The notes under the pieces: model-generated
The model's input: only the letters and a program-made list of their open reading frames with translations
Told to the model about the DNA's origin: nothing
Databases searched by the model: none
Position numbers and translations under genes: made by a program
Shown here: positions 43,238-61,516 of the stretch, one piece after another
Layout: the number at the start of each line of letters is the position of its first letter
How positions within the stretch are numbered: the stretch's first letter is position 1
From: a virus
DNA length: 64,000 nt
Direction: 5' to 3' (one strand)
Virus record (IMG/VR): IMGVR_UViG_3300025853_000044
Span: 31,368 to 95,367 of that record

Positions 43238-44338
43238 TCACTTGAGGTCACGGATTGAGCCGTGTCCACCGAAGAAAGTCGTCCATAGTTCTCCCATGGT
43301 GCGGTACATTCCTTCTTGTCCGAGGCGGTTGATAGCGAATGGGTCGCCAGTTTCAATACCGCTCTCAAAGTATTGGGTTGGAATTGCAGTGCTGAAGTAC
43401 AAGTAATCCGTGTCAAGGAAGTACATACGGCTCAAAGTGTCCGTTTGAATGTCCTTGGATGGGATGATTGGGACACCGTTGTAGGTGGCCACAATGAAAC
43501 CTGCTTCAATACCGGGAACACCTTTCACACCGTTGTAGGTAGGGGTGACACGCTTCTCTTCCATAAACCGCTGTTGGCTTTGGAGGAGTTGTTGTAGGCG
43601 CATCAAGGTGTCGTATCCAGTAAGAATAACCTTGGGGTTTCCACCACGAGTCCAAATCTTTTGGAACAGGTCATCCAACTGGTCAAGGGACAAGTTGCGG
43701 TCAGTACCACTGTTTTCATTGTGCTCAGCGAGCGACCACGAGTTTGCACTGCGGTCAATGGAGTACATGTCTTCAGTTGAACCTGCGGAAGCACCAACGG
43801 TCACACGGTCAAGGGATTCAAAGTCGTTCCCTGCAACGGTGGCTTTGTCGGTCGTAAGCATCTTGTTCACATGCTCAGCGTGGTGCTTACCCATTTCTTC
43901 CTTGAGAATTGCACGAATGTCGCCCAATCCATCGTCCTTGTCGGACAGGAACATTGCGGTTTCGCTCATGTCAAAGGTGTGAACCACAGTCTTTGGCTTG
44001 GCGGCAATGTGCTGGAAGGTTGGTTTGGTGGTGTCGGGGAGCGTAGCGTTTTCTGCAACACCGCCGCCAACCGTGAAGGAAGGACGCTCGGTGATGACTC
44101 GCCAACCACTGCGTTCCCAAGGTCGCTTGGGAAGGATGGAGAAGGCGTTGAACTCTTGGTTCAACTGGCTCCAAACCTTGCGTCCATAGATGGCTTGGTA
44201 AGTACCAGCCGTGGTGGACAGCATTGGAGCGTCAGCCTTGAGCAACTCGCTACCGGAGTAGGAGTATCCCATTGCGTTGCCTGCGCCGTAGTAGTATCGT
44301 TCCATGTCAGTAATGTTTCGGATGTAGTCTCTTGCCAT
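43238..44338 (-). CDS. Major capsid protein (HK97 fold)
   Basis: Follows protease/scaffold; GGGVAENATLP, DFESLDRV, YNGVPIIP...MYFLDTDYL; GAGGTGA SD. Confidence 0.85.
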   Translation of the reverse strand: MARDYIRNITDMERYYYGAGNAMGYSYSGSELLKADAPMLSTTAGTYQAIYGRKVWSQLNQEFNAFSILPKRPWERSGWRVITERPSFTVGGGVAENATLPDTTKPTFQHIAAKPKTVVHTFDMSETAMFLSDKDDGLGDIRAILKEEMGKHHAEHVNKMLTTDKATVAGNDFESLDRVTVGASAGSTEDMYSIDRSANSWSLAEHNENSGTDRNLSLDQLDDLFQKIWTRGGNPKVILTGYDTLMRLQQLLQSQQRFMEEKRVTPTYNGVKGVPGIEAGFIVATYNGVPIIPSKDIQTDTLSRMYFLDTDYLYFSTAIPTQYFESGIETGDPFAINRLGQEGMYRTMGELWTTFFGGHGSIRDLK

Positions 44339-44365
44339 ATCATTTCACCTCATTTATTTGTGTGT

Positions 44366-45745
44366 TCATTCCCCTCGCAGGGTGCGATGTGCAAGGGCGT
44401 GAACTTCGTCCCACCCCATGTTCGCCATGTCTTGCGTTGAGGGAATGTCAATGGATGCAACCGACTTTTGAATGGTCGTGCCTGCTCCTGCACCGATGTT
44501 GTCAATGCGCTCGGAAAGAGCCTCAATGGACTTCACGATTTCCGTAAGTGGTGCTCGTGCGTCAAAGGCGGCTTTATCAGCCTCGGATTTAGCAACTTCC
44601 ATCTCGTTGTTGAAGCGAGCGGCAAAGTTGCCTTCAAGGTTGTTTCGGAAGTCTTGTTCCAAAGCGGCGGCTTTGTAAACTTCGTAAGCGGCTTCAAGGT
44701 CTGCATCACTCACATTTTCGGAGTTGAGGTAGCCCTTGGACAATGAGGCTGGCCCCATTGCTCCGGCAGGAGTTTTACCACCGGAAGCGGTGATAGCGTT
44801 GATTGCACCAGTGGAGGGAGAACCGTTCTCCTGTCCTCGGCCACGGACTTGACCACCGAAGTAGTCAGCACCGTCAACAGCGTCGGGGTTGTCAAAGCCA
44901 CCAAGTTGGGCTTTCTCAAGTTGGTCAAAGTGGAGGCGAGCACCATCAGTGTCAACGCCAGCCGACTTGAGGGTGTTTTCCATCCAAGAAAGGTATTCGG
45001 AGGAAATAACATCGGAGTATTCTCCTTTGTCCATGTACATCTTGTCATCGTCTTTCTTTTCGTCTTTCATTTCGTCACCTTCTTCTTTTTCGGGCTTTTT
45101 TTCTTCATCACTACCCTTACCCTTCATGTGTTCACGGAGTTGAGGAGGTAGTTCTCCCTTTTCCATGGCATCCAGTCGGCTTTCAAGTCGTGACATAATT
45201 TCTGTCAAATCACTGTTTTCGTTTGTCATAGTGTTGTCCTCCTTCAAAATGCGGAACTGTGCTTCGGGGTTGATACCCTTTTCACAAATCGTCACCTCAT
45301 GCAACTCCATTTTTGAAATCTCTTGGTAGTCGCCTTTTTCCATGTCGGACTTTCGCACTCGCTTGAATGCTTGCCCTCCAATAGAAAATCCACGAAGGTT
45401 GCCCTTGCGGATTTCAGCGGCTACTTCACGAGCCTTCTCTATATCGTTGCGGAGTTTAACAACAACGAACAGCCCTGTGTCATCCGTTTCGGATTTCCAC
45501 ATGCGTCCGTTGGAATCAATGTACGAGTCAATGACTTCGCCAACTTGAATGTTGGAGTGAGCCAACTGTACATTGCGGTACTTTTCACCCTTCATGAAGC
45601 CATCAAAGGCATCCTTTAGGGCGGAGCGAGTAATGAGGTCGCCTTGCTTATCTACAAGTTCAACTGATGCGTAGCCAGCAACAACCAAATCGTTACCACT
45701 CTTGAGGAGAGTGATACCGTCAGTAGGTCGTTGAATGCTCAGCAT
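44366..45745 (-). CDS. Prohead maturation protease fused to scaffold
   Basis: VAGYASVELVDKQGD, LAHSN, LRGFSIGG, LHEVTIC...NPEA (HK97 gp4-type His/Ser protease), followed by an acidic coiled-coil scaffold. Confidence 0.9.
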   Translation of the reverse strand: MLSIQRPTDGITLLKSGNDLVVAGYASVELVDKQGDLITRSALKDAFDGFMKGEKYRNVQLAHSNIQVGEVIDSYIDSNGRMWKSETDDTGLFVVVKLRNDIEKAREVAAEIRKGNLRGFSIGGQAFKRVRKSDMEKGDYQEISKMELHEVTICEKGINPEAQFRILKEDNTMTNENSDLTEIMSRLESRLDAMEKGELPPQLREHMKGKGSDEEKKPEKEEGDEMKDEKKDDDKMYMDKGEYSDVISSEYLSWMENTLKSAGVDTDGARLHFDQLEKAQLGGFDNPDAVDGADYFGGQVRGRGQENGSPSTGAINAITASGGKTPAGAMGPASLSKGYLNSENVSDADLEAAYEVYKAAALEQDFRNNLEGNFAARFNNEMEVAKSEADKAAFDARAPLTEIVKSIEALSERIDNIGAGAGTTIQKSVASIDIPSTQDMANMGWDEVHALAHRTLRGE

Positions 45746-45767
45746 TGAACTTCCGACTCCCTGTTAT

Positions 45768-45776
45768 GGTATAAGA
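45768..45776 (-). promoter_or_regulatory. Candidate TATA box for the protease-capsid operon
   Basis: TCTTATACC on the - strand about 25 nt upstream of ATG 45745, in the 39-nt gap. Confidence 0.4.
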
Positions 45777-45784
45777 ATGGTTCG

Positions 45785-48700
45785 TCAAGTCCGAGACACC
45801 AACGGCTGGTCATTGTCGTAGTCTATAGAGAGTCTTTCACCCTCGTCAGTTTCTACTTGAATGTGATTCAGTCGCTCGGTTTTCTTCTCTTTCTTTTCAT
45901 CAGTAATTTTTTTCTCACCGTCAAAATCCGGTAAGGTTGACTCGTGACGAAGTTGGGTTGGGCCACGGGGCGATTCCTGCGGTGTACCAACATCAATACC
46001 CAGTCCCTTTGGCCCAGTCCATGTCATGCGCTCTTTGCTGATTTTATCCAAGGCTCGTACAATAACTTCCAATGCTTTCTTTGTTTGATTGGGTTTGAGA
46101 AGGCGATTTTCATCATCTTCTTCAAGAATACCCACGCTTTGCTCTTCAGTTCGTTTATCGCTCGGCTTCTTCGGCATTACATCACTTTCAGTTTGTTTAC
46201 TGAGTAATCCTTTTACCATTAGTGGAGCAACCGACGACCAAAACGGCATAAGACTTTCAGCCAGCACCACAGGGTAATCGGTCTTGGTCAAATCACCCAT
46301 CGTGCTTTTTGGTGAATGCACACACCACACATCGCCTATTTCTTCCATGTTGTACACTACTGTGTCAACTCCCTTCAACACGATTTGAATCTGTGAGTCC
46401 GAGATTTCAATATCGTGAGGAATAAGAATTGGTGCGAATGCTTTGGTCATGAGGTCAAGAGATTCTGTGCTGGCCGCACCCTCTCCTTCACCCTCCCCTT
46501 CCAACTCCTTGACTTGTACATTGTACACAGGGCGGTTTTTGCGGTTTTTCTTGGAAATACCCGTGATGGATGCACGAACAATGTCGCCAACCTTGAACAC
46601 CATACGCTGGTTATGAGCCGTACCCACATCCATGTAATGTTCACCATCATGCTCCACAGCCCTGTTTCCAAGCCCCTCAATCTCAAGGATAGGGCCAGCA
46701 CCCAACTGATAGGTGTACGGGCCTTTGCCACGACGGTCAAGGATGATGAAGTTGAAGTCTCGGCTGTCACGGTAAACAATCCACTTTGGATGTCGTCGCT
46801 CTCCACGCATGTAGGTGGATTTGTTGTCTCGCAACAAAATGTTGTCGTGGTCGTCTTTGAGGTTCTTTACAGCGTCGGCCAGTCCCTCATCGTCTGTCAT
46901 ACGAGTATCGTGTGGGCCGGGTACAATCACAGGCTCTTGACTGTCAAACTGTGAGCGTAGAATTTTCAACCGCTCAAACAACTGCATTTCACCCACATTG
47001 GTATCGTCGTAATTGATAATGTCAATGATGTTCAACTCTTCTTCACCAAGAATAGCGTCCAGCGTATAGTTCTTGTCGTTCATTTTTTCAAGAGCCTCTT
47101 TCGTGGCTTTGCGTAGCCCCTTCTTACGACCGTTTTCATCATACGCCGTAATCTCGTCATCACTGCGTACAATGATAATTCGCTTCCCATCATACCACTT
47201 ACTTACAACCCACGAGCCGCTGAAACCACGAAGGTGTTCAAGGTCGGCCAAATCAAAAATGCGGTGCATAGGGCGAACAGCAGGACTCCATTTCGCATCG
47301 TCGCTCTTGCTCAACAACACATCCGGGTCAAGTAGAGAGGTGATGAGTTCGGTCATCTCACTTGCCGCTACCGTAGTTGGAATCTCGCTTGCTGTTTCTG
47401 CTGTCTCCATGTTCATGCTTTGGTGAGGATTGTCGGGGTACTGAGGTGGTGGTGCATTTGCATAGACTTGTTGCGCTACTTCTTTTCCGTGAATCATAGC
47501 GGTCAAATCCTCCGGCACAGAATGATACAACCCTGTGCCTACATTTGAACCGATGTGAATTGTACCGTCGTCGCCAAACTCAGCACCAAGTGTAGGTGTT
47601 GCTTCATACCCATGGTGCCACGCACCGCTGTCAAAGTTATCCGTCAACCCTGCGTGTGCGGGCGAAGGAATACCCAGTGGATACTGAGACATGCCTGCTG
47701 TTTCAGGAATTTCCAAGTCGGGTGTGAAGACACCTTCCTCTTCTTCAAGTACACGAGGGTCAAAGTGAATAATCGTGTCAAGGTGATTCTTGGTGTCGTT
47801 TGTTTTACGGGATTTTGATTGACTACCAAAGCCCTTTGCACCGTGAATATCACCTTTGACGGCACCAATACCAGCGGCTTTCATTGAGTCTTTGAATTGC
47901 TGTGGGTTAAGTTTCATACCCATGGCTCGTGGAATACCGTGAGAAAGATGTCCACCCCATGCTTTTATGTCAGTTTGTTGTGCAAAGTGGTTAATGGCTT
48001 GATGATACCCGTTTTCTCGTGCGTGGCGATAGAACGCCTCATGGTCGTCCAACTCCTCTTCGGGCTTGTTCATCATCTCTTCGTCGGTGAAATGATTGAG
48101 GTCAAGCCCGTCAATGTTCGGGATTTTACCACTGAGAAGAATGTTCTTAATTGTAGAAACTTGTAACGGCGCACCTCTTTCACCCACCATATCAATGAGT
48201 TCTTGGGCTTTCACTTTTGCAACAGGAGTTCGTTGGATTCCAAGTTTGTCCAACAGTTTGTCAGCATTTTCATCACCCTCAACCATTATACCGTCTGTGG
48301 ACAAATGATTAGCGATAGTAGCGTGGAATGGATTTTGTGCCGCAGGGTCGGTGTCTCGTACAGAAGCCTGTAATCCATAATTGGTTGAAGAAACACCGTG
48401 TACACTGTGAGGAACAGACACAATGTAGCGTTGAGCGTCACGCATCAGTTGATGGGTGTTTGCGATAAACTTCTCCGGCTCGTCGGGATTGAAAGCATCG
48501 GGGTCATGCTCAAGGTATTTTGGTAGAAGAACATCTCGTGCAACCTCAGCAATGGTTTGTCGGTGGCCACCAAACAATTGCTCCATACGAGTGGCATCAA
48601 GTTTCCACATTGTGTTTTTACTCTTCTTTTGTGTGCTTTGCTGTACCTTTTCCAATTGTTGAGTCGTATCGTTGATTTCAGCCATCAACGGTTGCAATTC

Positions 48701-51571
48701 TTCAATGGGTGCGCCAGTGGTTTGCTTTTCAGTCAACTCTTGATTTAATTCTTCAAGCATTGTTGTGAGTTCGGATTCTTGTTGCGAAGCGGGTAACATA
48801 CCGCCGAATTGAAGCAAACGAGAAACGGCATCCTTTTCGTCAGCCGCCATTGTGGTTTTTGTTTTCTGTGTCTTTTTCTTCGCTTGCAGTTCCTCAGTCA
48901 TGGTTTCCGTCATGCTTTGAAGAGAAGAAAGCAACTTCTGTTCATCAAACTCACCAAGACCTCGGCCCAACAAAGCAGTGTTTAATTCGGGATGCTTATC
49001 TGTAACGACACCGGGTGCCATCGGGAGAGTGTTTCTACCGTGCATAAGGTACTCAAGAATCTCCTTTGGGTCTTGTGTACCCAGTATTTTTGACGCTTGA
49101 GTAATGGCCGTCATAGCGTGATTCATATCGGGATTGGTCAACACTTGATTCTTCAACGCATTGAACGAAAAGCCACTACCACCGCCCCATCGCATAAAAT
49201 CAATGAAGTGTTCTTTGCTCTCCCCACCACTGAATGCCTCATCTCCACGAAGGAAGTCTTGAACTTTCATCAGTGATTTTTGTGCTGGTTGATGAGGGTG
49301 ATTCATACGCCCGCCAAGCGTTTCAAGGAAGTGAGCCAGTTGTGCGTTCTTGTGCATATTGCTGTCCGAAGGAGATGCGCCGTAGGATGTGAAGGCACCC
49401 ACATGATAGGTGGGAATAATTGTGTGTGGATATGTCAACGGTTTGAGATGGGTGCCAAACCTGTCCTTACGCTCTTTGTCCGTCATGTGGCGAATCGTGT
49501 ATTCGTAATCGGGGTTGAGTGTCGTTTTGTGTTCTGTGTAGTTGTTCTTGCCGGTTGAACCGTCCCGGTACGCTCGTTTTTTGGAATGCCCTACGGGAGA
49601 AAGCAAGTTTTGTAGCAACTCTTTTTGGTTGAAGTATGAAAAGCCCTTACCAGTAGAAACAAATTGCTGTGTGCTTGTGTTTACCTTTTTCATTTTTTCG
49701 CCAAACTCACCAATCAACTTTGTTTTTAATGGCATGAAGTGATGAGCGAGCGTTGTGTTATCGGGATTGGCATTGATGTAATTTGCACCAGCATCGCTTA
49801 GTTCTGTGAATGGCGAAAGACCGTCCTCATCAGCATGTGTGGCGTGAAGGATGTCATGGTAAGTTGCAAGCGTTATACCTGCTCCGCCCGTTTTTGCAAA
49901 GGCTGAGTCCCAAAAGCGACCGGGGCCGTAAGTGAAACCGTCACTGTGGTTTCGCCAGTAATTCGGTTTTTCCTCTGTTGGATGAGGGCCGTGTGGGGAA
50001 GTAAAAAAGGCCCGATGATTGCGAGCATCCTTGATACCAGCATGAAGTGAAGAGTTCGCCTTAGCCATGGATTCAATGTCGTCAATCAAGTCAGCGTTGA
50101 CAATTGGTTCTTCCAATTTACCGTGAATTGGATGGTCGGTCATCAACTCCCGTGTCTTAGGGTCGTAGCCAGCCAAATAAAGCAAATCAGCCTTGCTCAT
50201 TCGCACATCGTCAAGACTTCGCTTTCTTCCCTTTACTTTGAAGTGGCTTGCCATTGCATCTTTCATTTCGTCTTGGTCAAGTTCTCTCATTGGGTTCTTG
50301 TCCACATAAAGGCGTGGTAGAAACTTGTGATGCCCCGATATACCGTAGTTGTCTCGGATGCGTTCAAGAATAATTTCTGAGAGTGAATGACCATCAAATT
50401 CATCCATAGGCTCGTGAGCAAATCTACCCATAGCCTGTTGCAAAAACATGTTGCTTTCACCAGCAATGTAGTCGTTGTCATTGTTTTCTTGATGGTAGTG
50501 TGCATTTCGCCCCATATGTGTCATTGGACGCATAGCCCAATTCATTTCGGGAGTCATACGCATGAGGGCGTTGTATTTGAGGCGAGCAGAAGGAAACTTT
50601 TGTCCGTTAGGTAGCGAAATCAAATCATGGTCGTCAAGACCCTTTTCACCGATATGCTCCATGATGGCTGTGCGTTCTTCGGGGTCAAACCATTCAAGGC
50701 CAAGCATGTAGCCAAGGTGCCCAAGCCGTGTTGGGTGTTCTTCATACTTGTCGCTGAGCATCATGTTGCTATCGTCATCAGCCTCCCACATGGCCGCTCG
50801 GTCAGCAAAGTGTTCTTTGCGAAGTTGCTCTTTCATCTCAGCGTTGTCCATACCTTCAGCCAGTAATTCCTCTTGACGATTCTTGTTCCGCTTTAACCAA
50901 CGGAAATAATCTCGCTCGTAGAGGTCATGCTGGTGATGAAGAAGTGTGCCGTTTGGACGGGTATCACCAAGAATGTTTACCTTCTTTCCTCCTTTTTGCT
51001 GAAACCCACCGACAAGAGGATGGTCTTTACCGAGAGTATCAAAGAATTGCTTTTCCATTTCCTTCTCGGCTTCACCATGCCCACCCAGTGCCCAACTTCG
51101 TAGCATCTCTACATAGGCAGGCATCCCCGACACTGCGTTGGTACGAAGAAGCGGGTGGTTGACTTCGTGAAACGGGAAGTGGTGCCGCTGGTATGGATGT
51201 GTGCCGTCCTTTGGTTGGTAGTACGGCCACATTGCATGGCCGTGCTTTTTGTTTACAGGTGATTGAAGCCCGTCTTTCCATACATGGTTGGTCGGCTCGC
51301 CATGTGAGTGTTGAAGAGCGAACAAGTAGCCCATACCTTCGGGATATTTGTAATCGGTTTCACCGACTTTTACTGCATCTTTTTCTGCTTGTTCTTTATT
51401 CTTGTAAATCATCTCAGCCGTGGCTTTGAGAGATTTGAACAACGGTTCGCTTGGAGTCGTGTCAAGTGCTTCGTAGGCAAGAATGTATTCAGCCGCCGAA
51501 TAAACAAGGTCAAGACCATCATCCAGTGATTTAAGCAGTTGGTTGCTACACACAAAGAAATGGTCGTTCAC
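45785..51571 (-). CDS. 1928-aa head-module protein with a degenerate ATP-dependent DNA ligase (nucleotidyltransferase + OB) domain
   Basis: WVVSKWYDGKR, YTLDAIL, IIDII, ILLRD, YMRGERRHPKW and an OB-like YQLGAG...DVGT...VGDIVR at about 46500-47300. The ~1400-aa N-terminus is unrecognised. Confidence 0.75.
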   Translation of the reverse strand: MNDHFFVCSNQLLKSLDDGLDLVYSAAEYILAYEALDTTPSEPLFKSLKATAEMIYKNKEQAEKDAVKVGETDYKYPEGMGYLFALQHSHGEPTNHVWKDGLQSPVNKKHGHAMWPYYQPKDGTHPYQRHHFPFHEVNHPLLRTNAVSGMPAYVEMLRSWALGGHGEAEKEMEKQFFDTLGKDHPLVGGFQQKGGKKVNILGDTRPNGTLLHHQHDLYERDYFRWLKRNKNRQEELLAEGMDNAEMKEQLRKEHFADRAAMWEADDDSNMMLSDKYEEHPTRLGHLGYMLGLEWFDPEERTAIMEHIGEKGLDDHDLISLPNGQKFPSARLKYNALMRMTPEMNWAMRPMTHMGRNAHYHQENNDNDYIAGESNMFLQQAMGRFAHEPMDEFDGHSLSEIILERIRDNYGISGHHKFLPRLYVDKNPMRELDQDEMKDAMASHFKVKGRKRSLDDVRMSKADLLYLAGYDPKTRELMTDHPIHGKLEEPIVNADLIDDIESMAKANSSLHAGIKDARNHRAFFTSPHGPHPTEEKPNYWRNHSDGFTYGPGRFWDSAFAKTGGAGITLATYHDILHATHADEDGLSPFTELSDAGANYINANPDNTTLAHHFMPLKTKLIGEFGEKMKKVNTSTQQFVSTGKGFSYFNQKELLQNLLSPVGHSKKRAYRDGSTGKNNYTEHKTTLNPDYEYTIRHMTDKERKDRFGTHLKPLTYPHTIIPTYHVGAFTSYGASPSDSNMHKNAQLAHFLETLGGRMNHPHQPAQKSLMKVQDFLRGDEAFSGGESKEHFIDFMRWGGGSGFSFNALKNQVLTNPDMNHAMTAITQASKILGTQDPKEILEYLMHGRNTLPMAPGVVTDKHPELNTALLGRGLGEFDEQKLLSSLQSMTETMTEELQAKKKTQKTKTTMAADEKDAVSRLLQFGGMLPASQQESELTTMLEELNQELTEKQTTGAPIEELQPLMAEINDTTQQLEKVQQSTQKKSKNTMWKLDATRMEQLFGGHRQTIAEVARDVLLPKYLEHDPDAFNPDEPEKFIANTHQLMRDAQRYIVSVPHSVHGVSSTNYGLQASVRDTDPAAQNPFHATIANHLSTDGIMVEGDENADKLLDKLGIQRTPVAKVKAQELIDMVGERGAPLQVSTIKNILLSGKIPNIDGLDLNHFTDEEMMNKPEEELDDHEAFYRHARENGYHQAINHFAQQTDIKAWGGHLSHGIPRAMGMKLNPQQFKDSMKAAGIGAVKGDIHGAKGFGSQSKSRKTNDTKNHLDTIIHFDPRVLEEEEGVFTPDLEIPETAGMSQYPLGIPSPAHAGLTDNFDSGAWHHGYEATPTLGAEFGDDGTIHIGSNVGTGLYHSVPEDLTAMIHGKEVAQQVYANAPPPQYPDNPHQSMNMETAETASEIPTTVAASEMTELITSLLDPDVLLSKSDDAKWSPAVRPMHRIFDLADLEHLRGFSGSWVVSKWYDGKRIIIVRSDDEITAYDENGRKKGLRKATKEALEKMNDKNYTLDAILGEEELNIIDIINYDDTNVGEMQLFERLKILRSQFDSQEPVIVPGPHDTRMTDDEGLADAVKNLKDDHDNILLRDNKSTYMRGERRHPKWIVYRDSRDFNFIILDRRGKGPYTYQLGAGPILEIEGLGNRAVEHDGEHYMDVGTAHNQRMVFKVGDIVRASITGISKKNRKNRPVYNVQVKELEGEGEGEGAASTESLDLMTKAFAPILIPHDIEISDSQIQIVLKGVDTVVYNMEEIGDVWCVHSPKSTMGDLTKTDYPVVLAESLMPFWSSVAPLMVKGLLSKQTESDVMPKKPSDKRTEEQSVGILEEDDENRLLKPNQTKKALEVIVRALDKISKERMTWTGPKGLGIDVGTPQESPRGPTQLRHESTLPDFDGEKKITDEKKEKKTERLNHIQVETDEGERLSIDYDNDQPLVSRT

Positions 51572-51583
51572 GCTATCACCGCC

Positions 51584-51730
51584 CTATTGGAGCGGTACAA
51601 ATTGTGGACAAGCGTGCAAATCCATTCCGCCATGTTGCGGCAATTGACATCCTGTGCGTTCAACGCCTCCACACAGACCACAAATAACTGGTGCACCGCT
51701 TTCACGCATTGCCGCTTTTGGGTTAGGCAT
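51584..51730 (-). CDS. 48-aa Cys-rich protein, not in the ORF track
   Basis: MPNPKAAMRESGAPVICGLCGGVERTGCQLPQHGGMDLHACPQFVPLQ*; TGATG overlap with the upstream stop; fills the gap. Confidence 0.7.
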   Translation of the reverse strand: MPNPKAAMRESGAPVICGLCGGVERTGCQLPQHGGMDLHACPQFVPLQ

Positions 51731-52245
51731 CAACGCCCACCCGCCGTGTCTTCTCGCTCAGCCCCTCGTCCCTCATGAGGATTCATACGAGAGCCGAGGC
51801 GTTGAGTGTCAATGGCTTCTTTGGGCTTCTTTTTCTTGGGAGCATCCTCAGTCTCAATGGTGCGTCCGTTAGTGGTAAAGTAACCACTTTTGGTTTGTCC
51901 ACCCGATTCAGCGTGGAAAGAAGGATTGACATCGGTGATTTTCTCAGCCTTGAAGCCCGGTTCGGCTTTGGCCATTTTACCATGAGACTTGTTGCATTGT
52001 GCCTTTTGCTTTTCCGAGCATTCCGAATACTTCTTACCGAAGTTCTTCATACAGTATTTATCTTTGGTAGCCATGTCAGCCTTAGCCATTTTGCCACCGC
52101 AACCCATTTTCATACATTGGCCCATTTTGTTGAGTTTACCACCTTTACACTTTGGACAATCTTCACCTTTTAGCAATTCGTCAATTCGTTGTTCAAGTTC
52201 AATGGCCTTTGTCAAATATCCGTTTTCTACTGGTCGTGGTTTCAT
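51730..52245 (-). CDS. Lys/Cys-rich protein with LLKG/MAKA motifs (start corrected to ATG 52245)
   Basis: ATGA overlap with the upstream gene; GGAGG SD; CPKC and two KMAKA. Confidence 0.65.
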   Translation of the reverse strand: MKPRPVENGYLTKAIELEQRIDELLKGEDCPKCKGGKLNKMGQCMKMGCGGKMAKADMATKDKYCMKNFGKKYSECSEKQKAQCNKSHGKMAKAEPGFKAEKITDVNPSFHAESGGQTKSGYFTTNGRTIETEDAPKKKKPKEAIDTQRLGSRMNPHEGRGAEREDTAGGR

Positions 52246-52583
52246 TGTACACCCTCCTTTGCACCTAAAGCCAATTCGTGAATGTCTTCCCACGACATGG
52301 CATGAATGTCCTCATTACTCATTGTGCCTATTTCGGGTGAACTCTTGAGAAGAGCACCACCTTCAAGAGCCATATCTCCCCGGAAAGGGTCAACTTGTAA
52401 GTCATTTGTGAAAGGAGTAGAGACATTGACAAGTCCCATTTTACGAAGAAGTTGTTGTGGGTTGTTGATGAGTCTTTTGAGAGCATCATTTTCAGCCTTA
52501 AGAATTGAAAGATTGGAATCCATAGACTCCATCTTATTGATGAGAACACCAATCAATTGTTCAGCATCGGATGATTCACTCAT
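52242..52583 (-). CDS. Mini scaffold-like protein
   Basis: N-terminal coiled coil; C-terminal SNEDIHAMSWEDIHELA resembles the scaffold C-terminus STQDMANMGWDEVHALA. Confidence 0.6.
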   Translation of the reverse strand: MSESSDAEQLIGVLINKMESMDSNLSILKAENDALKRLINNPQQLLRKMGLVNVSTPFTNDLQVDPFRGDMALEGGALLKSSPEIGTMSNEDIHAMSWEDIHELALGAKEGVQ

Positions 52584-52989: not shown

Positions 52990-54771
52990 TTACTGTCCAC
53001 GGGGGCGACGAGCATCCAAAAGTGCATTACTCAAGTTTTGTTGCATAGATGGTGCTGGCCCTCTTTGTTGTACATTCGTAAATGGTGCACCGCTACCCAT
53101 ACTTCCTCGTCGTTGAGGAGTCGCTGGCCCACGGTTTCGTAATCCCACGCCTTGACCTCCGGGTTGTGGAGGTGGCATCACCTGTTGAGCGAGTTGTGGA
53201 GGCATTTGTGGGCCTCTTCCTTGCATCATAGGCATACCCGGAGGCATACCCGGAGGCATACCGGGAGGCATACCGGGAGGCATACCGGGAGGCATACCTC
53301 CTCCCATTGGTGGAGCACCACCCGGCGGAGCACCTTGTTGTGGTGGTTGAGGTTCGGGACGCTTGTAAGTGAAACGGATGTCTCGGTTGGCTGTGTCTTC
53401 AATGAGTTCGGGCATAAAGCCAAGTTGCGCCATGCGTTGTGCGACATTGAGTTCTTCCGAATCACGGCGTAGGCGTGTAATCTCATCTTCTTCTTCGTTG
53501 GGATAGAGCGTAAGTTTCCAATCATTGATGTCCATTTGTTTGAGAAGACGAGGGAACAGAACTTCTGTGTACACTTTTTGTCCAAACTCAACGGCTCGGT
53601 TTGTCACGAGAATCTGCATACCTTCATTGTTAAGACCGCCTTTTTTACCAGCATCCATCATGAAAACCGACGAAACACCGTAGAAAGCGGCAATGCGATT
53701 ACGAATTTCATCACGCACTGCAATGTATTGCATTTCTTCCAGTGTGTCCATGAACTTAACCCAATTAACGCCACCACGACCTGTAGATGATTCAATGCCA
53801 ACCTTGGGCACATAGTGAGGGTCACGCTCCATTTTTTCGTCCACAGCCTTCCAAAATGACTTCATGGACTCCAAGTTATCTGTGGTGACTGATACGATAC
53901 CCTTTGGCATCCGTCGCTTTTGATATGCTGTGTAAATGTAATTGTCCATAGCCGTGAGTGTCATGGCTTGTCGCCACATGGTGTTGACAGGAGAGCGACC
54001 ATACAGTTTAGACGCTTTGTACTTACTCACATGAAGAATTTCGCCTTCAACGAAGTATTGGGTTTTTCCGCTACCTGCCATGTTTACATAATGCACATCG
54101 TGGAGGTCAGCACCGCACACTTCACATGTATCATCCTCAGCGTGTGTTTTGATTTGGTCACGATGAATTAAACATGTTTTGTAGCGTCCACCACGCACAC
54201 CTCGCTTATCAGCAACGATACGCATGAAAATAGGGTCGCCACGCATGATTTCTTTAACACGGTAAAAAGCCACTTCTTTGCTCTTAGGGTCAATAAAATA
54301 CTCCTTGACTAAAATCAAGAAAGCATCATCTACGATGTTGAGGTCAGCCTCTATTTCATTGAGTACAGTAATGAACGATTGCTCCATGCTGTTCTCTTGT
54401 TTAAGGAGCCACTTGGCGTAAGTCAATTCATCTATATCGGGTTTTCTTACAGCCCCGCCGCACTCAGCACATGTTTCCACTTCACTTTGATACTCCTCAT
54501 CACACACCGTACATTTGCGTGCAAATTTCTTCTCCCAGTAGTAGCCACGACGAAACATCTCTTGGCGCAACTTGGCAAGCACTGTACGAAGAATCAGCGA
54601 CTCGTTGCTTACAGCATACAACGCAGGGATGGTGATACCCTGCGCCATCACAGGCTCTTGAATACCACTTGTCCACAGCGGCATGGTTGGAGTGGGAGAT
54701 TCTTTGCGACGGAAAGGCGTACCCAACGCTGAAAGAAATCGTGAAATTCTACCTTGTTCTTCAGCCATCAC
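52990..54771 (-). CDS. Portal protein with Zn-ribbon inserts and a Pro/Gly/Met/Gln tail
   Basis: ADLNIVDDAFL, EILHV...LYGRSP, RMPKGIV, RIAAFYGV: HK97-like portal motifs. Confidence 0.88.
   Translation of the reverse strand: MMAEEQGRISRFLSALGTPFRRKESPTPTMPLWTSGIQEPVMAQGITIPALYAVSNESLILRTVLAKLRQEMFRRGYYWEKKFARKCTVCDEEYQSEVETCAECGGAVRKPDIDELTYAKWLLKQENSMEQSFITVLNEIEADLNIVDDAFLILVKEYFIDPKSKEVAFYRVKEIMRGDPIFMRIVADKRGVRGGRYKTCLIHRDQIKTHAEDDTCEVCGADLHDVHYVNMAGSGKTQYFVEGEILHVSKYKASKLYGRSPVNTMWRQAMTLTAMDNYIYTAYQKRRMPKGIVSVTTDNLESMKSFWKAVDEKMERDPHYVPKVGIESSTGRGGVNWVKFMDTLEEMQYIAVRDEIRNRIAAFYGVSSVFMMDAGKKGGLNNEGMQILVTNRAVEFGQKVYTEVLFPRLLKQMDINDWKLTLYPNEEEDEITRLRRDSEELNVAQRMAQLGFMPELIEDTANRDIRFTYKRPEPQPPQQGAPPGGAPPMGGGMPPGMPPGMPPGMPPGMPPGMPMMQGRGPQMPPQLAQQVMPPPQPGGQGVGLRNRGPATPQRRGSMGSGAPFTNVQQRGPAPSMQQNLSNALLDARRPRGQ
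53231..53298. repeat. 12-bp tandem repeat encoding (GMPP)n
   Basis: GGCATACC(C/G)GGA, five full copies plus a partial one. Confidence 0.9.
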
Positions 54772-56084
54772 AATCCCTCAGCGTATGTACCTATCGTGTC
54801 AGCATTTAAGCCCCACTTATCAAGAAGAGAAGCGGCTTTGTTTTTATGTTCTTTCCAATTGTTGTAGGTAACCAATTGATACAACTCAGTCTTTCGCATG
54901 GTGTCCTTCTCTTCAATGTAATTCAACACCGCTTTGGCTTGTAGTGATTTGAGTTTAAGGTGTGGAAGCACCCCTTTGAGTATTTCACGAATGTCATTCT
55001 TTGATGAGAAAATAAGGCGATGAACGGGCTTAATGGTATTTTTTGCCAACTTTTGGTCGGACACAAGGCGACCACAACCAATCATTTTTTGCAATTCTTC
55101 ACAATGGCTGAAACCATTGTCGCCACTGGCTACAATCGTCACACGAGGGTCGCCACGCTCGGAGATGAAAATGCTTCCATCGGCATCAACAAAACCAGCG
55201 GTGTATGCCCACATGTCTTTGATGATGAAACCATCAGTGCCTTGTTTGACAAAAGTTTGTCGTGCGCTACCTTTGTACACATCAACCTCTTCACCATACA
55301 TTTTGAGTAAAGAACTCATTTTACCGGCTGTCATGGATTTGTTAAGGGTTCCATAGCCTCTACGCACAATTTCACGACTTCCGAGAGCACCTTCCTTTTG
55401 TAAAAGGTCGGATGCGAAATGCAATGCGGCTACATCTGTCTTTTTTAACCCATCAATTTGATGCAGTGTGTTCTTCCACATCTTTTGGGCTTCTTTCTTC
55501 ATGTCGTTTGCATCAACCCAGTTTTGCTGGTCGTCAGTGTTCCAATCCAACTTGTCGTTAAGGTGTTGAAGCACTGTAATTGCTTTGAGGTATTGTTGAC
55601 ATGATTTTTGTAAACTGATACCACGGGATTCACCAAATTTACGCAATGCTTTGAGTGAGCGGTCATCAAGTCCGATATTGCGTATGACATCCTCCATACC
55701 ATCAGCCCATGAAAGAGATTTGATGGTCAAATCAACCTCCATGGCTTTTACACGGCGTATGTCTTTGATGATGCCGTCATATTCATCCCGAAACGATTTG
55801 TCGTGTCGGCGCATTTTGCGACACATGCGAATAATAGTGTTGGCATCGGTACCGTATTTACTTTCAAACCAGCCATCTCCGTTTTTTGCAAACCGTGATA
55901 CTGCGTTGTCTTCTTTGATGACTGTATTTAAAGTCTTAAGGGGTACACTTTGTGGCTGAAAATGGGGATGTTGAGCAATACTTTTCAAAACAGTATTGGA
56001 AAAATCATCTGCGACACGCAACGGTACATCGTACTCGTCACCGATAAACAGACTCCCCCACATATTGACCACTGGATTGACCAT
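54768..56084 (-). CDS. Free-standing protein with a single C-terminal LAGLIDADG domain and a long N-terminal region
   Basis: WAYTAGFVDADGSIFI...LQKMIGCG...VLPHLKLKSLQA. Confidence 0.8.
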   Translation of the reverse strand: MVNPVVNMWGSLFIGDEYDVPLRVADDFSNTVLKSIAQHPHFQPQSVPLKTLNTVIKEDNAVSRFAKNGDGWFESKYGTDANTIIRMCRKMRRHDKSFRDEYDGIIKDIRRVKAMEVDLTIKSLSWADGMEDVIRNIGLDDRSLKALRKFGESRGISLQKSCQQYLKAITVLQHLNDKLDWNTDDQQNWVDANDMKKEAQKMWKNTLHQIDGLKKTDVAALHFASDLLQKEGALGSREIVRRGYGTLNKSMTAGKMSSLLKMYGEEVDVYKGSARQTFVKQGTDGFIIKDMWAYTAGFVDADGSIFISERGDPRVTIVASGDNGFSHCEELQKMIGCGRLVSDQKLAKNTIKPVHRLIFSSKNDIREILKGVLPHLKLKSLQAKAVLNYIEEKDTMRKTELYQLVTYNNWKEHKNKAASLLDKWGLNADTIGTYAEGL

Positions 56085-59540: not shown

Positions 59541-61516
59541 CGTCGTCCACCTTTTACAATTTGCATGACATCATCCATGGCTTTGTCCATGGACTTGTAA
59601 TACTCGCTGAGAAGAGATTGCTGTGGGTCAGCCATGAGTCGCTGTGCCGCCGCTTCCATAGGAGAAAGCGGTGCATCGCTCATCGGCATGGGTCTGCGAC
59701 GGCCCGATTGTTCAAGCAGTTGTCGGAACTGCATGGGGTCAAGTTGCCCAATTTGCGGTCGCAATTGTTGATATTGCTGTCTCGCAGTATGCGGGAAAGA
59801 AGAAGGTGCCGCCCGAACCGGAGTAGGAACCGGAGAAGTAGTACCCGTTACAGGAGAAACGGGCTGAACAGGTGAAGAAATGACCTGCGGTTCGGGCGAC
59901 TGTGTAAGGGAGGGGTCAAACGCCTCCGTTGGTGCAAAATCATGGATTTCGTGAAAGTACGCATCCATGTGAGGGTCAAGAGGAGGCATGGAGTATTCTC
60001 CTGTCTCGGTATTGAGTTCGGGGTAGCCGCCAATGGACATACCGGGACGAGCGGTGGTAGGGATGTCACCAATACCTCGCTTAACCTCGTGGCCTTGTGC
60101 GCTGGCTTGATGGTCAGCCAATGCTTCCAAAACATTTCGGAAACGGTCAACTTGACCCATAAGACCCTCACTGTGATACATACCCATGGCTTGAAGTTCA
60201 TCAGCCGAGATACCGTGTTCACCAAATCGGCTACGACCTTCTTCACTACCCTCACCCGATGCACGGGCAAGAGCGAACATACGCTTAGCGGATTCGTGCA
60301 TTCCCTTGCCGCCTTTTGCACCCGCTGAGAGGTACTTGGCCTGCTCACCTGCTGAGAGCATGTCTTCGGATGCACCATACTTTTCCATCATGTGGTCGTA
60401 CAACTTTTTGAAATTACCTTGCCCACTACGACCAAACAGAAACATCATAGCAGGTACATGAGCCATGTCTTCTATCAGTTTATTTCGCAATTCGGGAGTT
60501 TGAAGGATTTCGTGAAGTGGTCGGCTTATCATGTTAGGGGCACCAAACGAACCAGTATTGACCGTGACATCTACATTGGGAATGTGTTCTATACCTTGTT
60601 GTAAAGCACTTTGAATCATTTTTGATGCCGCTTGATATAACCCATCTTTGTGTTCCCAAGAATGCTTTTTTCCTGTTTTTTGCATTTTTTCGTTAAGAGC
60701 AGGGTAAAAGAAAGCGTCGGGAAGGTGGTGCAAAACTTCCCATGTATGTACACCTTCTGTTTCACCAAAAAATCCTTCGGGGCCACGCCCCATCATGCTC
60801 TCATCAATGTCAGCACCGTGTTGCTTTTGATTTGAAACGAGGAAGTTTTTAGGTGTAAGAAAGTGAGGTTGCATCCAAGGATAGTCAAGAAACTTAAGTC
60901 CTTGTCGTATTTCTTGTGTTGGAATACCCATATCCTCTAATTGGTGAGTTATGTTACGGTGAAATGGAATGTAGCCACCCTCAACGAATTTACCAACAGG
61001 GGTGGACATGTGATTCTTATTGGTGAGCATCGTGATTTTTGTACCACCCTTTGTTCGTGCAGGCATGGTATTTTTTTCTCTTGTTGCATCCCCTCCGGGC
61101 ATATCCGAAGCCCTAATTTTACGCCATTCGGGAGAGTCAAAACCCGCTAAAGCGTGTGCATCACCGTGAGAATGTGTGTCATTGAACTCGTTGATAGCGT
61201 TATTGATGACTTCGGAGACTGGAATGTTGAATCCTCTTGCACGAAGGAAATCACCAAGTCGGTGTGCTACAGCGTCAATAGGATGATGAAAATCACCGTA
61301 ATCTGTTTGATATGTTTTTTGACCGTGTTCTCCGATAGCCCACTGGCCGGGAAGAAGGTTGCCCACACCATCGTGAGCATGTGCAGGAAGGTCATCCTCT
61401 CCTTCGGGGCGGAAAGCCTGTGGTGGTGGGTTGCGAAAAATTTGCGCTCCCGCTGGCCCGTGCCCCACAAGGCTCCATGCCTTCTTGAGAGGACGACCCA
61501 CACGAATCATCATCAC
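59537..61516 (-). CDS. Hypothetical 659-aa protein
   Basis: Coupled ORF; N-terminal LKKAW, Pro-rich linker, C-terminal QSLLSEYY. Confidence 0.65.
   Translation of the reverse strand: MMMIRVGRPLKKAWSLVGHGPAGAQIFRNPPPQAFRPEGEDDLPAHAHDGVGNLLPGQWAIGEHGQKTYQTDYGDFHHPIDAVAHRLGDFLRARGFNIPVSEVINNAINEFNDTHSHGDAHALAGFDSPEWRKIRASDMPGGDATREKNTMPARTKGGTKITMLTNKNHMSTPVGKFVEGGYIPFHRNITHQLEDMGIPTQEIRQGLKFLDYPWMQPHFLTPKNFLVSNQKQHGADIDESMMGRGPEGFFGETEGVHTWEVLHHLPDAFFYPALNEKMQKTGKKHSWEHKDGLYQAASKMIQSALQQGIEHIPNVDVTVNTGSFGAPNMISRPLHEILQTPELRNKLIEDMAHVPAMMFLFGRSGQGNFKKLYDHMMEKYGASEDMLSAGEQAKYLSAGAKGGKGMHESAKRMFALARASGEGSEEGRSRFGEHGISADELQAMGMYHSEGLMGQVDRFRNVLEALADHQASAQGHEVKRGIGDIPTTARPGMSIGGYPELNTETGEYSMPPLDPHMDAYFHEIHDFAPTEAFDPSLTQSPEPQVISSPVQPVSPVTGTTSPVPTPVRAAPSSFPHTARQQYQQLRPQIGQLDPMQFRQLLEQSGRRRPMPMSDAPLSPMEAAAQRLMADPQQSLLSEYYKSMDKAMDDVMQIVKGGRR

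What the first reader, a model, noticed from the sequence alone, without database searches (positions are those of the whole stretch)
45785..51571. Apparently inactive ATP-dependent ligase fold inside a 1928-aa head-module protein
Seen: ligase motifs are in order but the catalytic residues are altered. Motif I KxDGxR reads K-W-Y-D-G-K-R (Trp at the adenylated Lys position, with Lys one residue earlier); motif III DGE reads DAI; motif IV EGxxxK reads DNILLR; motif V WxKxK reads WIVYR. The domain is bracketed by LLSKS and LMTKA sites, and the gene lies between portal and protease, the usual minor-head-protein slot. Inference: a ligase reused as a virion DNA-end- or nick-binding protein, released from a polyprotein by the maturation protease.
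Basis: partly seen in the sequence, partly recalled or inferred. Interest (0 to 1): 0.75.

Follow-up and report, generated by a model that had tools for sequence, protein, structure and literature searches.

The report
Dead ligase domain in giant head protein
A 1928-residue protein encoded between the portal and the capsid protease of a marine archaeal virus (magrovirus) contains a well-preserved DNA-ligase fold that has lost every residue needed for ligation; sister viruses keep an intact ligase at the same position, so the fold now serves a non-enzymatic and still unknown purpose.

Summary
ORF 45785-51571 (-) lies between the portal and the prohead protease/capsid genes. Residues about 1430-1710 fold as the nucleotidyltransferase (NTase) + OB core of an ATP-dependent ligase (AlphaFold pLDDT 92; Z 21.5 to Pyrococcus ligase 2cfm).

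The catalytic motifs are lost across the whole family. None of 183 giant homologues has Lys at the motif I position (W/F/M/Y instead). The neighbouring K1458 is present in only 89 of 183. The motif III Glu, the IIIa aromatic, the motif IV E-G..K and the first motif V Lys are gone, and a hairpin of about 25 residues is deleted.

The domain is nevertheless the most conserved part of the protein (dN/dS 0.03-0.04, against 0.12 elsewhere).

Sister magroviruses carry an ~830-residue protein in the same slot with all NTase motifs intact (Pfam 103 bits), plus a second ligase. Giant-type genomes, including one complete 107.6-kb genome, have no other detectable ligase.

Philosof et al. 2017 reported a "structural-module ligase". 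I found no paper noting its inactivation or its place inside a giant protein.

Capsid location, release by the protease and DNA binding remain inference. The candidate Lys-specific cleavage sites are conserved but untested.

First-stage readers noted the same feature on six other genomes.

The parts
45785..51571 (-). Giant head-module gene, 1928 aa (P0001)
   Evidence: One open frame. 215 full-length relatives of 1060-3374 aa. Same slot in related viruses.
47315..51571 (-). N-terminal body, residues 1-1419: large, mostly helical, acidic, His/Met-rich, no known fold found
   Evidence: AlphaFold model of residues 1-1200: pLDDT 81.4, pTM 0.70. No significant match in PDB or BFVD. No Pfam or PHROG hit. 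Least conserved part of the protein. dN/dS 0.12.
46442..47314 (-). Ligase-derived, catalytically dead module, residues 1420-1710 (P0002)
   Evidence: pLDDT 92.1. Z 21.5, rmsd 3.4 A over 264 residues to 2cfm. Most conserved segment of the protein. dN/dS 0.03-0.04.
46757..47275 (-). NTase (adenylation-like) subdomain, residues about 1433-1605, with degenerate motifs I, III, IIIa, IV and V
   Evidence: Aligns to human LIG1 506-750 at Z 19-20.6, rmsd 2.4-2.6 A over about 177 residues. Motif states.
47195..47197 (-). TGG codon for W1459 at the position of the adenylated Lys of motif I
   Evidence: Pairwise alignment to P0225 places it opposite the Lys of KYDGMR. Among 183 giants: W118, F18, M17, Y14, I6, L5, H3, Q2, K0.
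46493..46756 (-). OB-fold subdomain, residues about 1606-1693; no motif VI evident; followed by an (EG)4 linker and a short C-terminal helix
   Evidence: Secondary structure. Whole-module superposition on closed archaeal ligases. The GEGEGEG consensus is conserved.
47303..47317 (-). LLSKS: candidate protease site K1422|S1423, about 10 residues before the first strand of the domain
   Evidence: K1422 present in 99 of 121 close relatives. The ~1170-aa orthologues have h-x-K|[AS]-D at the same place. This stretch has low pLDDT. Cleavage untested.
46439..46453 (-). LMTKA: candidate protease site K1710|A1711, directly after the terminal helix
   Evidence: K1710 present in 121 of 121 close relatives. 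ETLxLL[TA]K|[SAG] is seen across the 1700-1960-aa representatives. It could instead be conserved as part of the ligase C-terminal helix.
45785..46441 (-). C-terminal tail, residues 1711-1928, moderately conserved (motifs such as GLGI and SPRGPT)
   Evidence: Conservation. Also matched in the ~1170-aa orthologues. No family hit.
52990..54771 (-). Portal protein (context)
   Evidence: PF04860 at 41 bits; phrog_18178 at E 3.6e-65.
44366..45745 (-). Prohead serine protease (S78) with a C-terminal scaffold-like extension (context; the presumed processing enzyme)
   Evidence: PF04586 at 41 bits; head maturation protease PHROGs. The N-terminal h-h-K|[SA] site is conserved in four related loci.
43238..44338 (-). 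Major capsid protein (context) with ELLK|A at residues 31-35
   Evidence: PF17236; phrog_24667 at E 2e-60. [LV]LK|[QAS] lies 27-38 residues in, in four orthologues.

Best explanation
The gene encodes a giant protein of the head-assembly module of a magrovirus (a tailed virus of marine group II archaea). Its best-conserved part, residues about 1430-1710, descends from an ATP-dependent DNA ligase that sister viruses still encode, with intact NTase motifs, at the same position. In this lineage the nucleotide-binding and catalytic residues were replaced. The Lys nucleophile became Trp/Phe/Met/Tyr. The motif III Glu became Ile/Val. The adenine-stacking aromatic became Ile. The motif IV Lys became Arg. 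The first motif V Lys became Leu/Val/Ile. A hairpin of about 25 residues was deleted. The result is a compact NTase+OB module predicted in the closed arrangement. It cannot form the enzyme-AMP intermediate and so cannot seal DNA, yet it is kept under very strong purifying selection, so it works non-catalytically. Shown here: the fold, the residue losses, the selection, the synteny and the relationship to the intact ligase. Inferred: the protein is built into the prohead, like other proteins encoded between portal and protease. The Lys-specific prohead protease probably cuts it at K1422|S and K1710|A, freeing a module of about 33 kDa. The most likely job of that module is to hold DNA (its backbone or an end) without joining it, inside the capsid or after ejection with the genome. 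My confidence is about 0.9 for 'conserved dead ligase fold in a head-module giant protein', about 0.5 for capsid location with proteolytic release, and about 0.35 for DNA binding as the retained activity.
For: Fold: (pLDDT 92; Foldseek E 1e-13; Z 21.5 over 264 of 291 residues to 2cfm). Motif losses across the family: (0 of 183 Lys at motif I; K1458 in only 89 of 183; motif IV Arg in 179 of 183; first motif V Lys in 0 of 183). Hairpin deletion: (spacing of 12 residues in 181 of 183 giants against 36-38 in the ligase type). Selection: most conserved segment; dN/dS 0.028 and 0.040 against 0.12. Origin: an intact-motif homologue sits in the same portal-to-protease slot. Colinear ~1170-aa orthologues are partly degenerate. 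One long, well-supported branch separates the Lys-bearing from the Lys-less sequences. Head-module context. Candidate Lys-specific sites are conserved in the capsid protein, the protease and at both ends of the domain. The segment just before motif V (S-T-Y-M-x-G-E-x-R-H-P-K-W) stays nearly invariant. By general knowledge of ligases it belongs to the conserved core around the active-site cleft. That is consistent with a surviving ligand-binding surface but does not show one.
Against: There is no direct evidence that the protein is in virions or is cleaved. The N-terminal LLK|S site of the giant protein is kept in only 78 of 178 relatives. The downstream 'site' is part of a helix that closed archaeal ligases also have. 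The deleted hairpin is the one that carries Phe635 in human LIG1 (my count; its role from memory). The predicted closed arrangement is not the DNA-encircling one, so nick recognition in the ligase manner is doubtful. The domain is acidic (net charge -7, pI 5.7), though no more so than the intact-ligase homologues.
Confidence: 0.55

Rival explanations
1. Purely structural exaptation. The dead ligase fold is a rigid protein-protein module (a plug, a core or scaffold element, or a docking unit for the portal or capsid) and no longer touches nucleic acid.
For: The predicted closed arrangement, with the OB domain packed on the NTase domain, is confident (pTM 0.84). The nick-wedging hairpin is deleted. 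All nucleotide-contacting side chains are replaced by hydrophobic ones. The domain is acidic. The rest of the protein is a huge helical body typical of capsid-internal proteins, though it has no significant structural match.
Against: Basic and polar residues inherited from ligases stay invariant (R1464, R1581, R1593, H1594, K1596), which is more than a packing role would seem to need. The ancestor at the same locus is a DNA enzyme.
Confidence: 0.27
2. It is still an enzyme. It either uses another nucleophile (for example the neighbouring K1458) for nucleotidyl transfer, or it has a new chemistry built on the retained Asp, Glu, His and Arg residues.
For: Many polar residues are invariant (H1436, R1437, D1505, D1517, D1582, E1591, H1594, K1596), and selection is very strong.
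Against: K1458 is Lys in only 89 of 183 giants and Ala, Ser, Thr, His or Val in the rest. The motif III Glu, the IIIa aromatic, the motif IV Glu-Gly and the first motif V Lys are all lost together. No motif VI is evident. Most of the invariant residues are also invariant in ordinary ligases, so they are inherited core rather than a new active site.
Confidence: 0.06
3. It is not a virion component. It is a cytoplasmic, non-catalytic factor of replication or packaging (for example a nick or end sensor acting with the neighbouring LAGLIDADG-type nuclease and the terminase), and its place in the head operon only serves late co-expression.
For: Philosof et al. 2017 (PMC5434244) note that a nuclease and a ligase are both 'inserted' in the structural module. 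Nothing here shows incorporation into capsids.
Against: The slot directly upstream of the protease and capsid genes is conserved across three groups. Lys sites like those in the capsid protein and protease flank the domain. A size of 218 kDa and a mostly helical body resemble packaged proteins, but this is resemblance only.
Confidence: 0.12

Closest known systems
The 'structural-module' ATP-dependent DNA ligase of magroviruses (Philosof et al. 2017, PMC5434244), represented here by P0225-type proteins of ~830-860 aa (loci L005, L027)
   Same: Homologous NTase+OB domain (E 1e-31). It shares the PM[HY]RIF and STY..G...PKW signatures. It occupies the same gene slot between the portal and the protease/capsid genes.
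   Different: The P0225 type keeps motif I KYDGMR, motif III LDAE, the IIIa FD, motif IV EGVVIK and motif V KWIKWK, and scores 103 bits on PF01068. The window's protein has lost all of these, lacks the ~25-aa hairpin, is 1928 aa long with a 1400-aa N-terminal body, and scores below the Pfam cut-off. P0225-type genomes carry a second ligase; giant-type genomes do not.
Archaeal ATP-dependent DNA ligases in the closed form (P. furiosus 2cfm, T. sibiricus 4eq5, A. fulgidus 3gde)
   Same: The whole-module superposition includes the domain arrangement and the C-terminal helix: Z 21.5, 20.2 and 19.6, rmsd 3.4-4.0 A over about 265 residues.
   Different: Only 15-16% identity. There is no N-terminal DNA-binding domain. 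No catalytic Lys and no nucleotide-binding residues. It is embedded in a giant viral protein.
~1170-aa orthologues in a third magrovirus group (P0230 type; loci L086, L109)
   Same: Colinear with the giant protein over five segments, including the N-terminal island, the ligase-like domain and the C-terminal tail. Same slot; the capsid protein is 63-64% identical. Motifs III, IV and V are degenerate and the hairpin is deleted.
   Different: About 750 residues shorter. Some members still have Lys at the motif I position (3 of 9 in the length class). They look like an intermediate state.
Large packaged or 'polyvalent' phage proteins and MuF-slot minor head proteins (Iyer et al. 2017, PMC5512222); T4 gp2 as a head-borne DNA-end protector (from memory)
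   Same: A large multidomain protein encoded next to the portal gene, possibly processed and delivered with the DNA. A functional analogy for an end-binding role.
   Different: No MuF domain or any other polyvalent-protein domain was detected. No ligase-fold module is described in that survey. Packaging is not shown here.

Membership tests
ATP-dependent DNA ligase (covalent nucleotidyltransferase superfamily) | NTase + OB fold | tested here: met
   AlphaFold pLDDT 92.1. Foldseek E 1e-13. VIA Z 21.5, rmsd 3.4 A over 264 residues to 2cfm.
ATP-dependent DNA ligase (covalent nucleotidyltransferase superfamily) | Motif I KxDGxR with the Lys nucleophile | tested here: not met
   W1459 aligns with the Lys of P0225. 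0 of 183 giants have Lys there. The adjacent K1458 is present in only 89 of 183.
ATP-dependent DNA ligase (covalent nucleotidyltransferase superfamily) | Motif III Glu, motif IIIa aromatic, motif IV EGxxxK, motif V Lys pair | tested here: not met
   Position 1507 is Ile or Val in 169 of 183. Position 1516 is Ile or Val in 139 of 183. Positions 1576/1577 are variable. Position 1581 is Arg in 179 of 183. Position 1599 is Leu, Val, Ile or Met in 182 of 183. Position 1601 is Arg in 124 and Lys in 2.
ATP-dependent DNA ligase (covalent nucleotidyltransferase superfamily) | Pfam PF01068 above the gathering score | tested here: not met
   By hmmscan of the protein: 21.2 bits against 26.2, covering profile positions 77-201 only. 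Five relatives score 16.6-24.5 bits. The six-frame genome search gives 20.1 bits for the match, and 28.3 only when neighbouring pieces in the frame are summed.
ATP-dependent DNA ligase (covalent nucleotidyltransferase superfamily) | Self-adenylation and nick sealing | not testable with these tools
   Needs biochemistry.
Magrovirus structural-module ligase family (Philosof 2017) | Homology to the family's ligase domain, and a position inside the head module between portal and protease | tested here: met
   E 1e-31 to P0225. Synteny in L005, L027, L086 and L109. A profile of the giant family matches those proteins.
Substrates of the prohead (S78) protease | Conserved cleavage motif shared with proven substrates of the same protease | tested here: inconclusive
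   [LM]-x-K|[SAG] is conserved at both ends of the domain, and similar sites are conserved in the capsid protein and the protease. LLK[SAG] occurs only in five adjacent head genes. No substrate of this protease has been mapped experimentally. The N-terminal site of the giant protein is kept in only 78 of 178 relatives.
MuF-slot / polyvalent packaged head proteins | MuF or other polyvalent-associated domain; presence in virions | tested here: inconclusive
   No such domain was found by Pfam or PHROGs, and the fold searches were non-significant. Virion presence cannot be tested here.

The most novel reading that the evidence does not exclude
Magroviruses carry a ligase-derived protein inside the capsid. 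In one group it is an active ligase delivered with the genome. In the window's large clade it has become a non-catalytic DNA-end or backbone holder that is cut out of a giant precursor by the prohead protease and ejected with the DNA. There it would protect or bridge the terminally redundant genome ends in a virus that no longer encodes any ligase. This would be a new class of virion-borne genome-end factor evolved from an enzyme.
Probability: 0.22. Interest if true: 0.8.

Novelty: new variant of a known kind. Interest (0 to 1): 0.6.

Why it matters
Magroviruses are among the most abundant archaeal viruses of the surface ocean. Their "structural-module ligase" has been an unexplained oddity since 2017. 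This analysis adds four points.

- In a large clade (at least 183 proteins here, 162 clusters at 50% identity) that "ligase" cannot ligate.
- It is nevertheless the most strongly constrained part of a 220-kDa head-module protein.
- The intact form, an intermediate form and the dead form sit at the same locus in three related groups, which gives a natural series for studying how an enzyme becomes a pseudoenzyme.
- The giant-type genomes examined lack any other detectable ligase. Gene-content surveys that count this domain as "DNA ligase" therefore overstate the replicative autonomy of these viruses.

It also makes the question "what does a ligase fold do in a capsid operon?" testable. The intact and the dead domains can be expressed side by side.

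Tried and rejected
- **Shifted-Lys idea.** Rejected: K1458 is not conserved.
- **Decaying pseudogene.** Rejected: dN/dS is 0.03-0.04 and the frame is intact in hundreds of relatives.
- **Other domains in the giant protein.** Pfam and PHROGs on it, on five relatives and on the C-terminal tail gave nothing. PDB sequence search gave only the ligase. ESM Atlas on residues 1-1400 gave no usable hit.
- **Fold of the N-terminal 1200 residues.** Foldseek against PDB and BFVD and VIA-wide gave only non-significant rows or generic helical hairpins.
- **GenBank phage collection.** No match.
- **The look-up of encoding contigs.** Context was obtained with the search for related loci instead.
- **Upstream ORFs in ligase-type viruses.** I asked whether the 640-760-aa ORF upstream of the ligase-type gene is the detached N-terminal body of the giant. 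There was no profile match.
- **N-terminal LLK|S of the giant as a universal propeptide site.** Rejected as general: kept in 78 of 178 relatives.
- **Charge comparison to judge DNA binding.** Uninformative.
- **Local L-INS-i alignment of full-length proteins.** Timed out; replaced by FFT-NS-2.
- **Tree.** The careful search did not finish, so the quick tree was used. It was drawn with a midpoint root only and did not include the ~1170-aa group, because of a coverage filter.
- **Model coordinates.** Not available, so no residue-level superposition on AMP-bound ligases was possible.
- **Magrovirus group.** Left undecided. The LAGLIDADG-type gene argues against group C.
Full report
**1. Observation**

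The minus-strand ORF 45785-51571 is a single 1928-codon frame starting at GTG.

| Feature | Sequence | Residues |
|---|---|---|
| Motif I | KWYDGKR | 1458-1464 |
| Motif III | DAI | 1505-1507 |
| Motif IV | DNILLR | 1576-1581 |
| Motif V | WIVYR | 1597-1601 |
| Upstream flank | LLSKS | 1419-1423 |
| Downstream flank | LMTKA | 1707-1711 |

The neighbours are as described. The portal is at 52990-54771 (PF04860; phrog_18178, E 3.6e-65). Three small ORFs follow, then the giant gene. After it come an S78 prohead protease with a long C-terminal extension (44366-45745) and an SU10/HK97-type capsid protein (43238-44338).

[quoted passage not shown] The relatives are marine metagenomic contigs of about 90-107 kb. 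Together with Philosof et al. 2017 (PMC5434244), this identifies a magrovirus.

**2. It is a ligase fold**

Sequence methods alone are weak. PF01068 scores 21.2 bits against a cut-off of 26.2 and covers only the C-terminal half of the NTase domain. The best PDB sequence hit is ligase 4eq5 at E 0.006.

Intermediate sequences close the gap. A search of 1.84 billion cluster representatives with residues 1420-1710 found 162 hits. Among them are proteins of about 850-910 aa that align to the window's domain at E 1e-31. Those proteins are themselves unambiguous ligases: PF01068 at 103 bits, and human LIG1 at E 3e-15.

An AlphaFold model of the domain, built from a 37-sequence alignment, has mean pLDDT 92.1 and pTM 0.84. 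It matches ATP-dependent ligases at Foldseek E 1e-13. Whole-module VIA scores are:

- Z 21.5 (rmsd 3.4 A over 264 of 291 residues) to Pyrococcus furiosus ligase 2cfm
- Z 20.2 to 4eq5
- Z 19.6 to 3gde

The NTase half alone matches human LIG1, LIG3 and LIG4 at Z 19-20.6, rmsd 2.4-2.6 A over about 177 residues.

The whole-module fits are to the closed, DNA-free archaeal structures. DNA-bound ligases superpose well only on the NTase half.

**3. It cannot be a ligase, and this holds for the whole family**

In the pairwise alignment with the intact homologue, the correspondences are:

| Window | Intact homologue (P0225) |
|---|---|
| W1459 | catalytic Lys of KYDGMR |
| DAI | DAE |
| DNILLR | EGVVIK |
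| PKWIVYR | PKWIKWK |

I aligned 183 homologues of at least 1500 aa to a profile of the domain. The counts were:

- **Motif I Lys position:** W118, F18, M17, Y14, I6, L5, H3, Q2. Never Lys.
Lys in only 89, otherwise Ala, Ser, Thr, His, Val and others.
- **Motif III Glu position:** Ile or Val in 169.
- **Motif IIIa aromatic position:** Ile or Val in 139.
- **Motif IV Lys:** Arg in 179.
- **First motif V Lys:** Leu, Val, Ile or Met in 182.
- **Second motif V Lys:** Arg in 124, otherwise small or polar residues.

The spacing between the motif III Asp and the motif IIIa Asp is 12 residues in 181 of 183 giants, against 36-38 in the intact homologues. A hairpin of about 25 residues is therefore missing. 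By my count on the alignment, that hairpin contains Phe635 in human LIG1. From memory of the LIG1-DNA structures, Phe635 wedges into the nick together with Phe872.

No motif VI is evident after the OB domain. It is not evident in the intact-motif homologues either, so I describe those as having all NTase motifs intact rather than as proven active.

**4. It is conserved, not decaying**

In an alignment of 58 full-length relatives, the ligase-like segment is the most conserved part of the protein. The mean frequency of the commonest residue is 0.55-0.84 per 20-residue block there, against 0.15-0.5 over most of the N-terminal 1400 residues.

Invariant or nearly invariant residues include PMHRIF (1434-1439), G1462, R1464, D1505, D1517, E1533-R1534, R1539, D1582, STYM (1585-1588), G-E (1590-1591) and R-H-P-K-W (1593-1597). 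Most of these are also core ligase residues.

Nei-Gojobori estimates against two relatives with unsaturated synonymous distances give the following:

| Region | dN/dS |
|---|---|
| Ligase-like domain | 0.028 and 0.040 |
| N-terminal body | 0.12 |
| C-terminal tail | 0.12 |

In all six comparisons dN in the domain is 3-7 times lower than in the N-terminal body.

**5. Evolutionary series at one locus**

Loci fetched from IMG/VR show the same gene order in three groups: LAGLIDADG-like gene, portal, small ORFs, X, protease, capsid protein.

- **Group 1 (L005, L027; capsid protein 37% identical to the window's).** X is about 830 aa with intact NTase motifs.
- **Group 2 (L086, L109; capsid protein 63-64% identical).** X is about 1170 aa. 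It is colinear with the giant protein over five segments, has the hairpin deletion and degenerate motifs III, IV and V, but sometimes still has Lys in motif I.
- **Group 3 (the window's group).** X is 1600-2500 aa and never has the Lys.

A quick maximum-likelihood tree separates the Lys-bearing from the Lys-less domains by one long, well-supported branch (SH-aLRT 99). It was drawn with a midpoint root only and did not include the ~1170-aa group. Because the catalytic motifs are ancestral to all ligases, the polarity is loss.

**6. Ligase content of the genomes**

The two complete ligase-type genomes (G003 at 89,940 bp; G004 at 90,867 bp with terminal repeats) each have two PF01068 genes: the head-module gene and a ~505-aa gene. 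This matches the 'two ligases' of Philosof et al.

The window's record, a complete giant-type genome (G001; 107,632 bp, terminal repeats, 100% complete) and two partial giant-type records (G002; G009) have only the degenerate domain as a PF01068 match. G000, G001 and G002 also have no PF09414 or PF01653 match.

Four partial records of the ~1170-aa group have no PF01068 hit at all.

A very divergent ligase could still be missed. Only one giant-type genome is complete.

**7. The rest of the protein**

Residues 1-1200 fold with unexpectedly high confidence (pLDDT 81.4, pTM 0.70) into a mostly helical body. Whole-model searches of PDB and BFVD gave nothing significant.

The protein is acidic (net charge -76) and rich in His (4.7%) and Met (3.8%).

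The C-terminal 218 residues are moderately conserved and are shared with the ~1170-aa orthologues.

**8. Processing and location (inference)**

The tetrapeptide LLK followed by Ser, Ala or Gly occurs five times in all long ORFs of the window (about 21,000 aa). It occurs once in each of five adjacent head genes: the capsid protein, the protease, the giant gene and two small ORFs.

The capsid protein site (ELLK|A, 34 residues in) and the protease N-terminal site are conserved in all four related loci examined. This fits a Lys-specific prohead protease. From memory, HK97 cuts its capsid protein after a Lys.

Around the domain:

- **Upstream.** K1422 is Lys in 99 of 121 close relatives. The ~1170-aa group has h-x-K|[AS]-D at the equivalent place.
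- **Downstream.** K1710 is invariant in 121 close relatives, within S-x-E-[ST]-L-x-[LIM]-[LMF]-[TAS]-K|[SAG].

Both sites lie just outside the folded core. The first is in a low-confidence linker. The second is after the terminal helix, which follows an (EG)4 linker.

Three caveats apply. The giant protein's own N-terminal LLK|S is kept in only 78 of 178 relatives. The terminal helix exists in ordinary closed archaeal ligases, so its conservation need not reflect cleavage. Nothing here shows that the protein is in particles.

**9. What it most likely does**

The core conclusion is that a conserved, catalytically dead ligase module forms the constrained heart of a giant head-module protein. I hold that with about 0.9 confidence.

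The module acts non-catalytically. That question remains open.

- **For DNA binding:** descent from a DNA enzyme at the same locus, and the invariant basic cluster before motif V.
- **Against ligase-style nick recognition:** the deleted hairpin and the closed predicted state.

I rank the DNA holder first (about 0.35), the structural module second (about 0.27), a non-virion factor third (about 0.12) and a residual enzyme last (about 0.06).

**10. Novelty**

Philosof et al. 2017 reported a distinct-family ligase embedded in the structural module of groups A and B, and treated it as a ligase. Later surveys list 'DNA ligase' among near-universal magrovirus genes.

In full-text searches I found no paper that notes the loss of the catalytic residues, the embedding in a ~1900-aa protein, or the absence of another ligase. 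I therefore class this as a new variant of a known kind.

First-stage readers of this scan noted the same feature on six other genomes. Those notes are unchecked, but they agree with the family-wide pattern measured here.

Noticed in passing
window 43238-52583 (-): LLK followed by S, A or G occurs only five times in all long ORFs of the window. It falls once in each of five adjacent head genes: the capsid protein, the protease, the giant gene, ORF 51730-52293 and ORF 52242-52583. The capsid protein and protease sites are conserved in three magrovirus groups. This suggests a Lys-specific prohead protease.
   Followed up: partly
G000 (own record), G001, G002, G009; G003 and G004 for contrast: Giant-type genomes have no detectable ATP-dependent DNA ligase gene (PF01068) other than the dead domain, and this includes one complete 107.6-kb genome with terminal repeats. 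G000, G001 and G002 also lack an RNA-ligase-family or NAD-dependent ligase gene. Ligase-type genomes have two PF01068 genes.
   Followed up: partly
window 47972-51571 (-), residues 1-1200 of the giant protein: The N-terminal body is predicted with high confidence (pLDDT 81, pTM 0.70) as a large helical structure with no significant match in PDB or BFVD. It is His- and Met-rich and acidic. It may contain undescribed folds.
   Followed up: partly
window 61516-63297 (-): A 594-aa ORF contains the 13-residue tag SEPMEDAWSSLLK twice, about 170 residues apart. Each copy ends in LLK followed by Q or R. This may be related to the Lys-site theme.
   Followed up: no
window 52242-52583 (-) and 44366-45745 (-): The 113-aa ORF ends in MSWEDIHELA..., which resembles the C-terminus of the protease/scaffold protein (MGWDEVHALA...). 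This may be a shared capsid- or portal-docking helix.
   Followed up: no
window 54768-56084 (-): A 438-aa ORF between the terminase region and the portal has a LAGLIDADG-like GFVDADGS motif and a weak HNH-endonuclease PHROG hit. It has homologues at the same place in all three virus groups. This matches the 'inserted nuclease' of Philosof et al.
   Followed up: partly
L005:7030-8952 and L027:6342-8624: Ligase-type magroviruses have an extra 640-760-aa ORF between the portal and the ligase gene. It has no family hit and no profile similarity to the giant protein's N-terminal body.
   Followed up: partly
window 46478-46501 (-), residues 1691-1698: A conserved (Glu-Gly)4 linker separates the OB domain from the terminal helix that carries the candidate K1710 cleavage site.
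   Followed up: no
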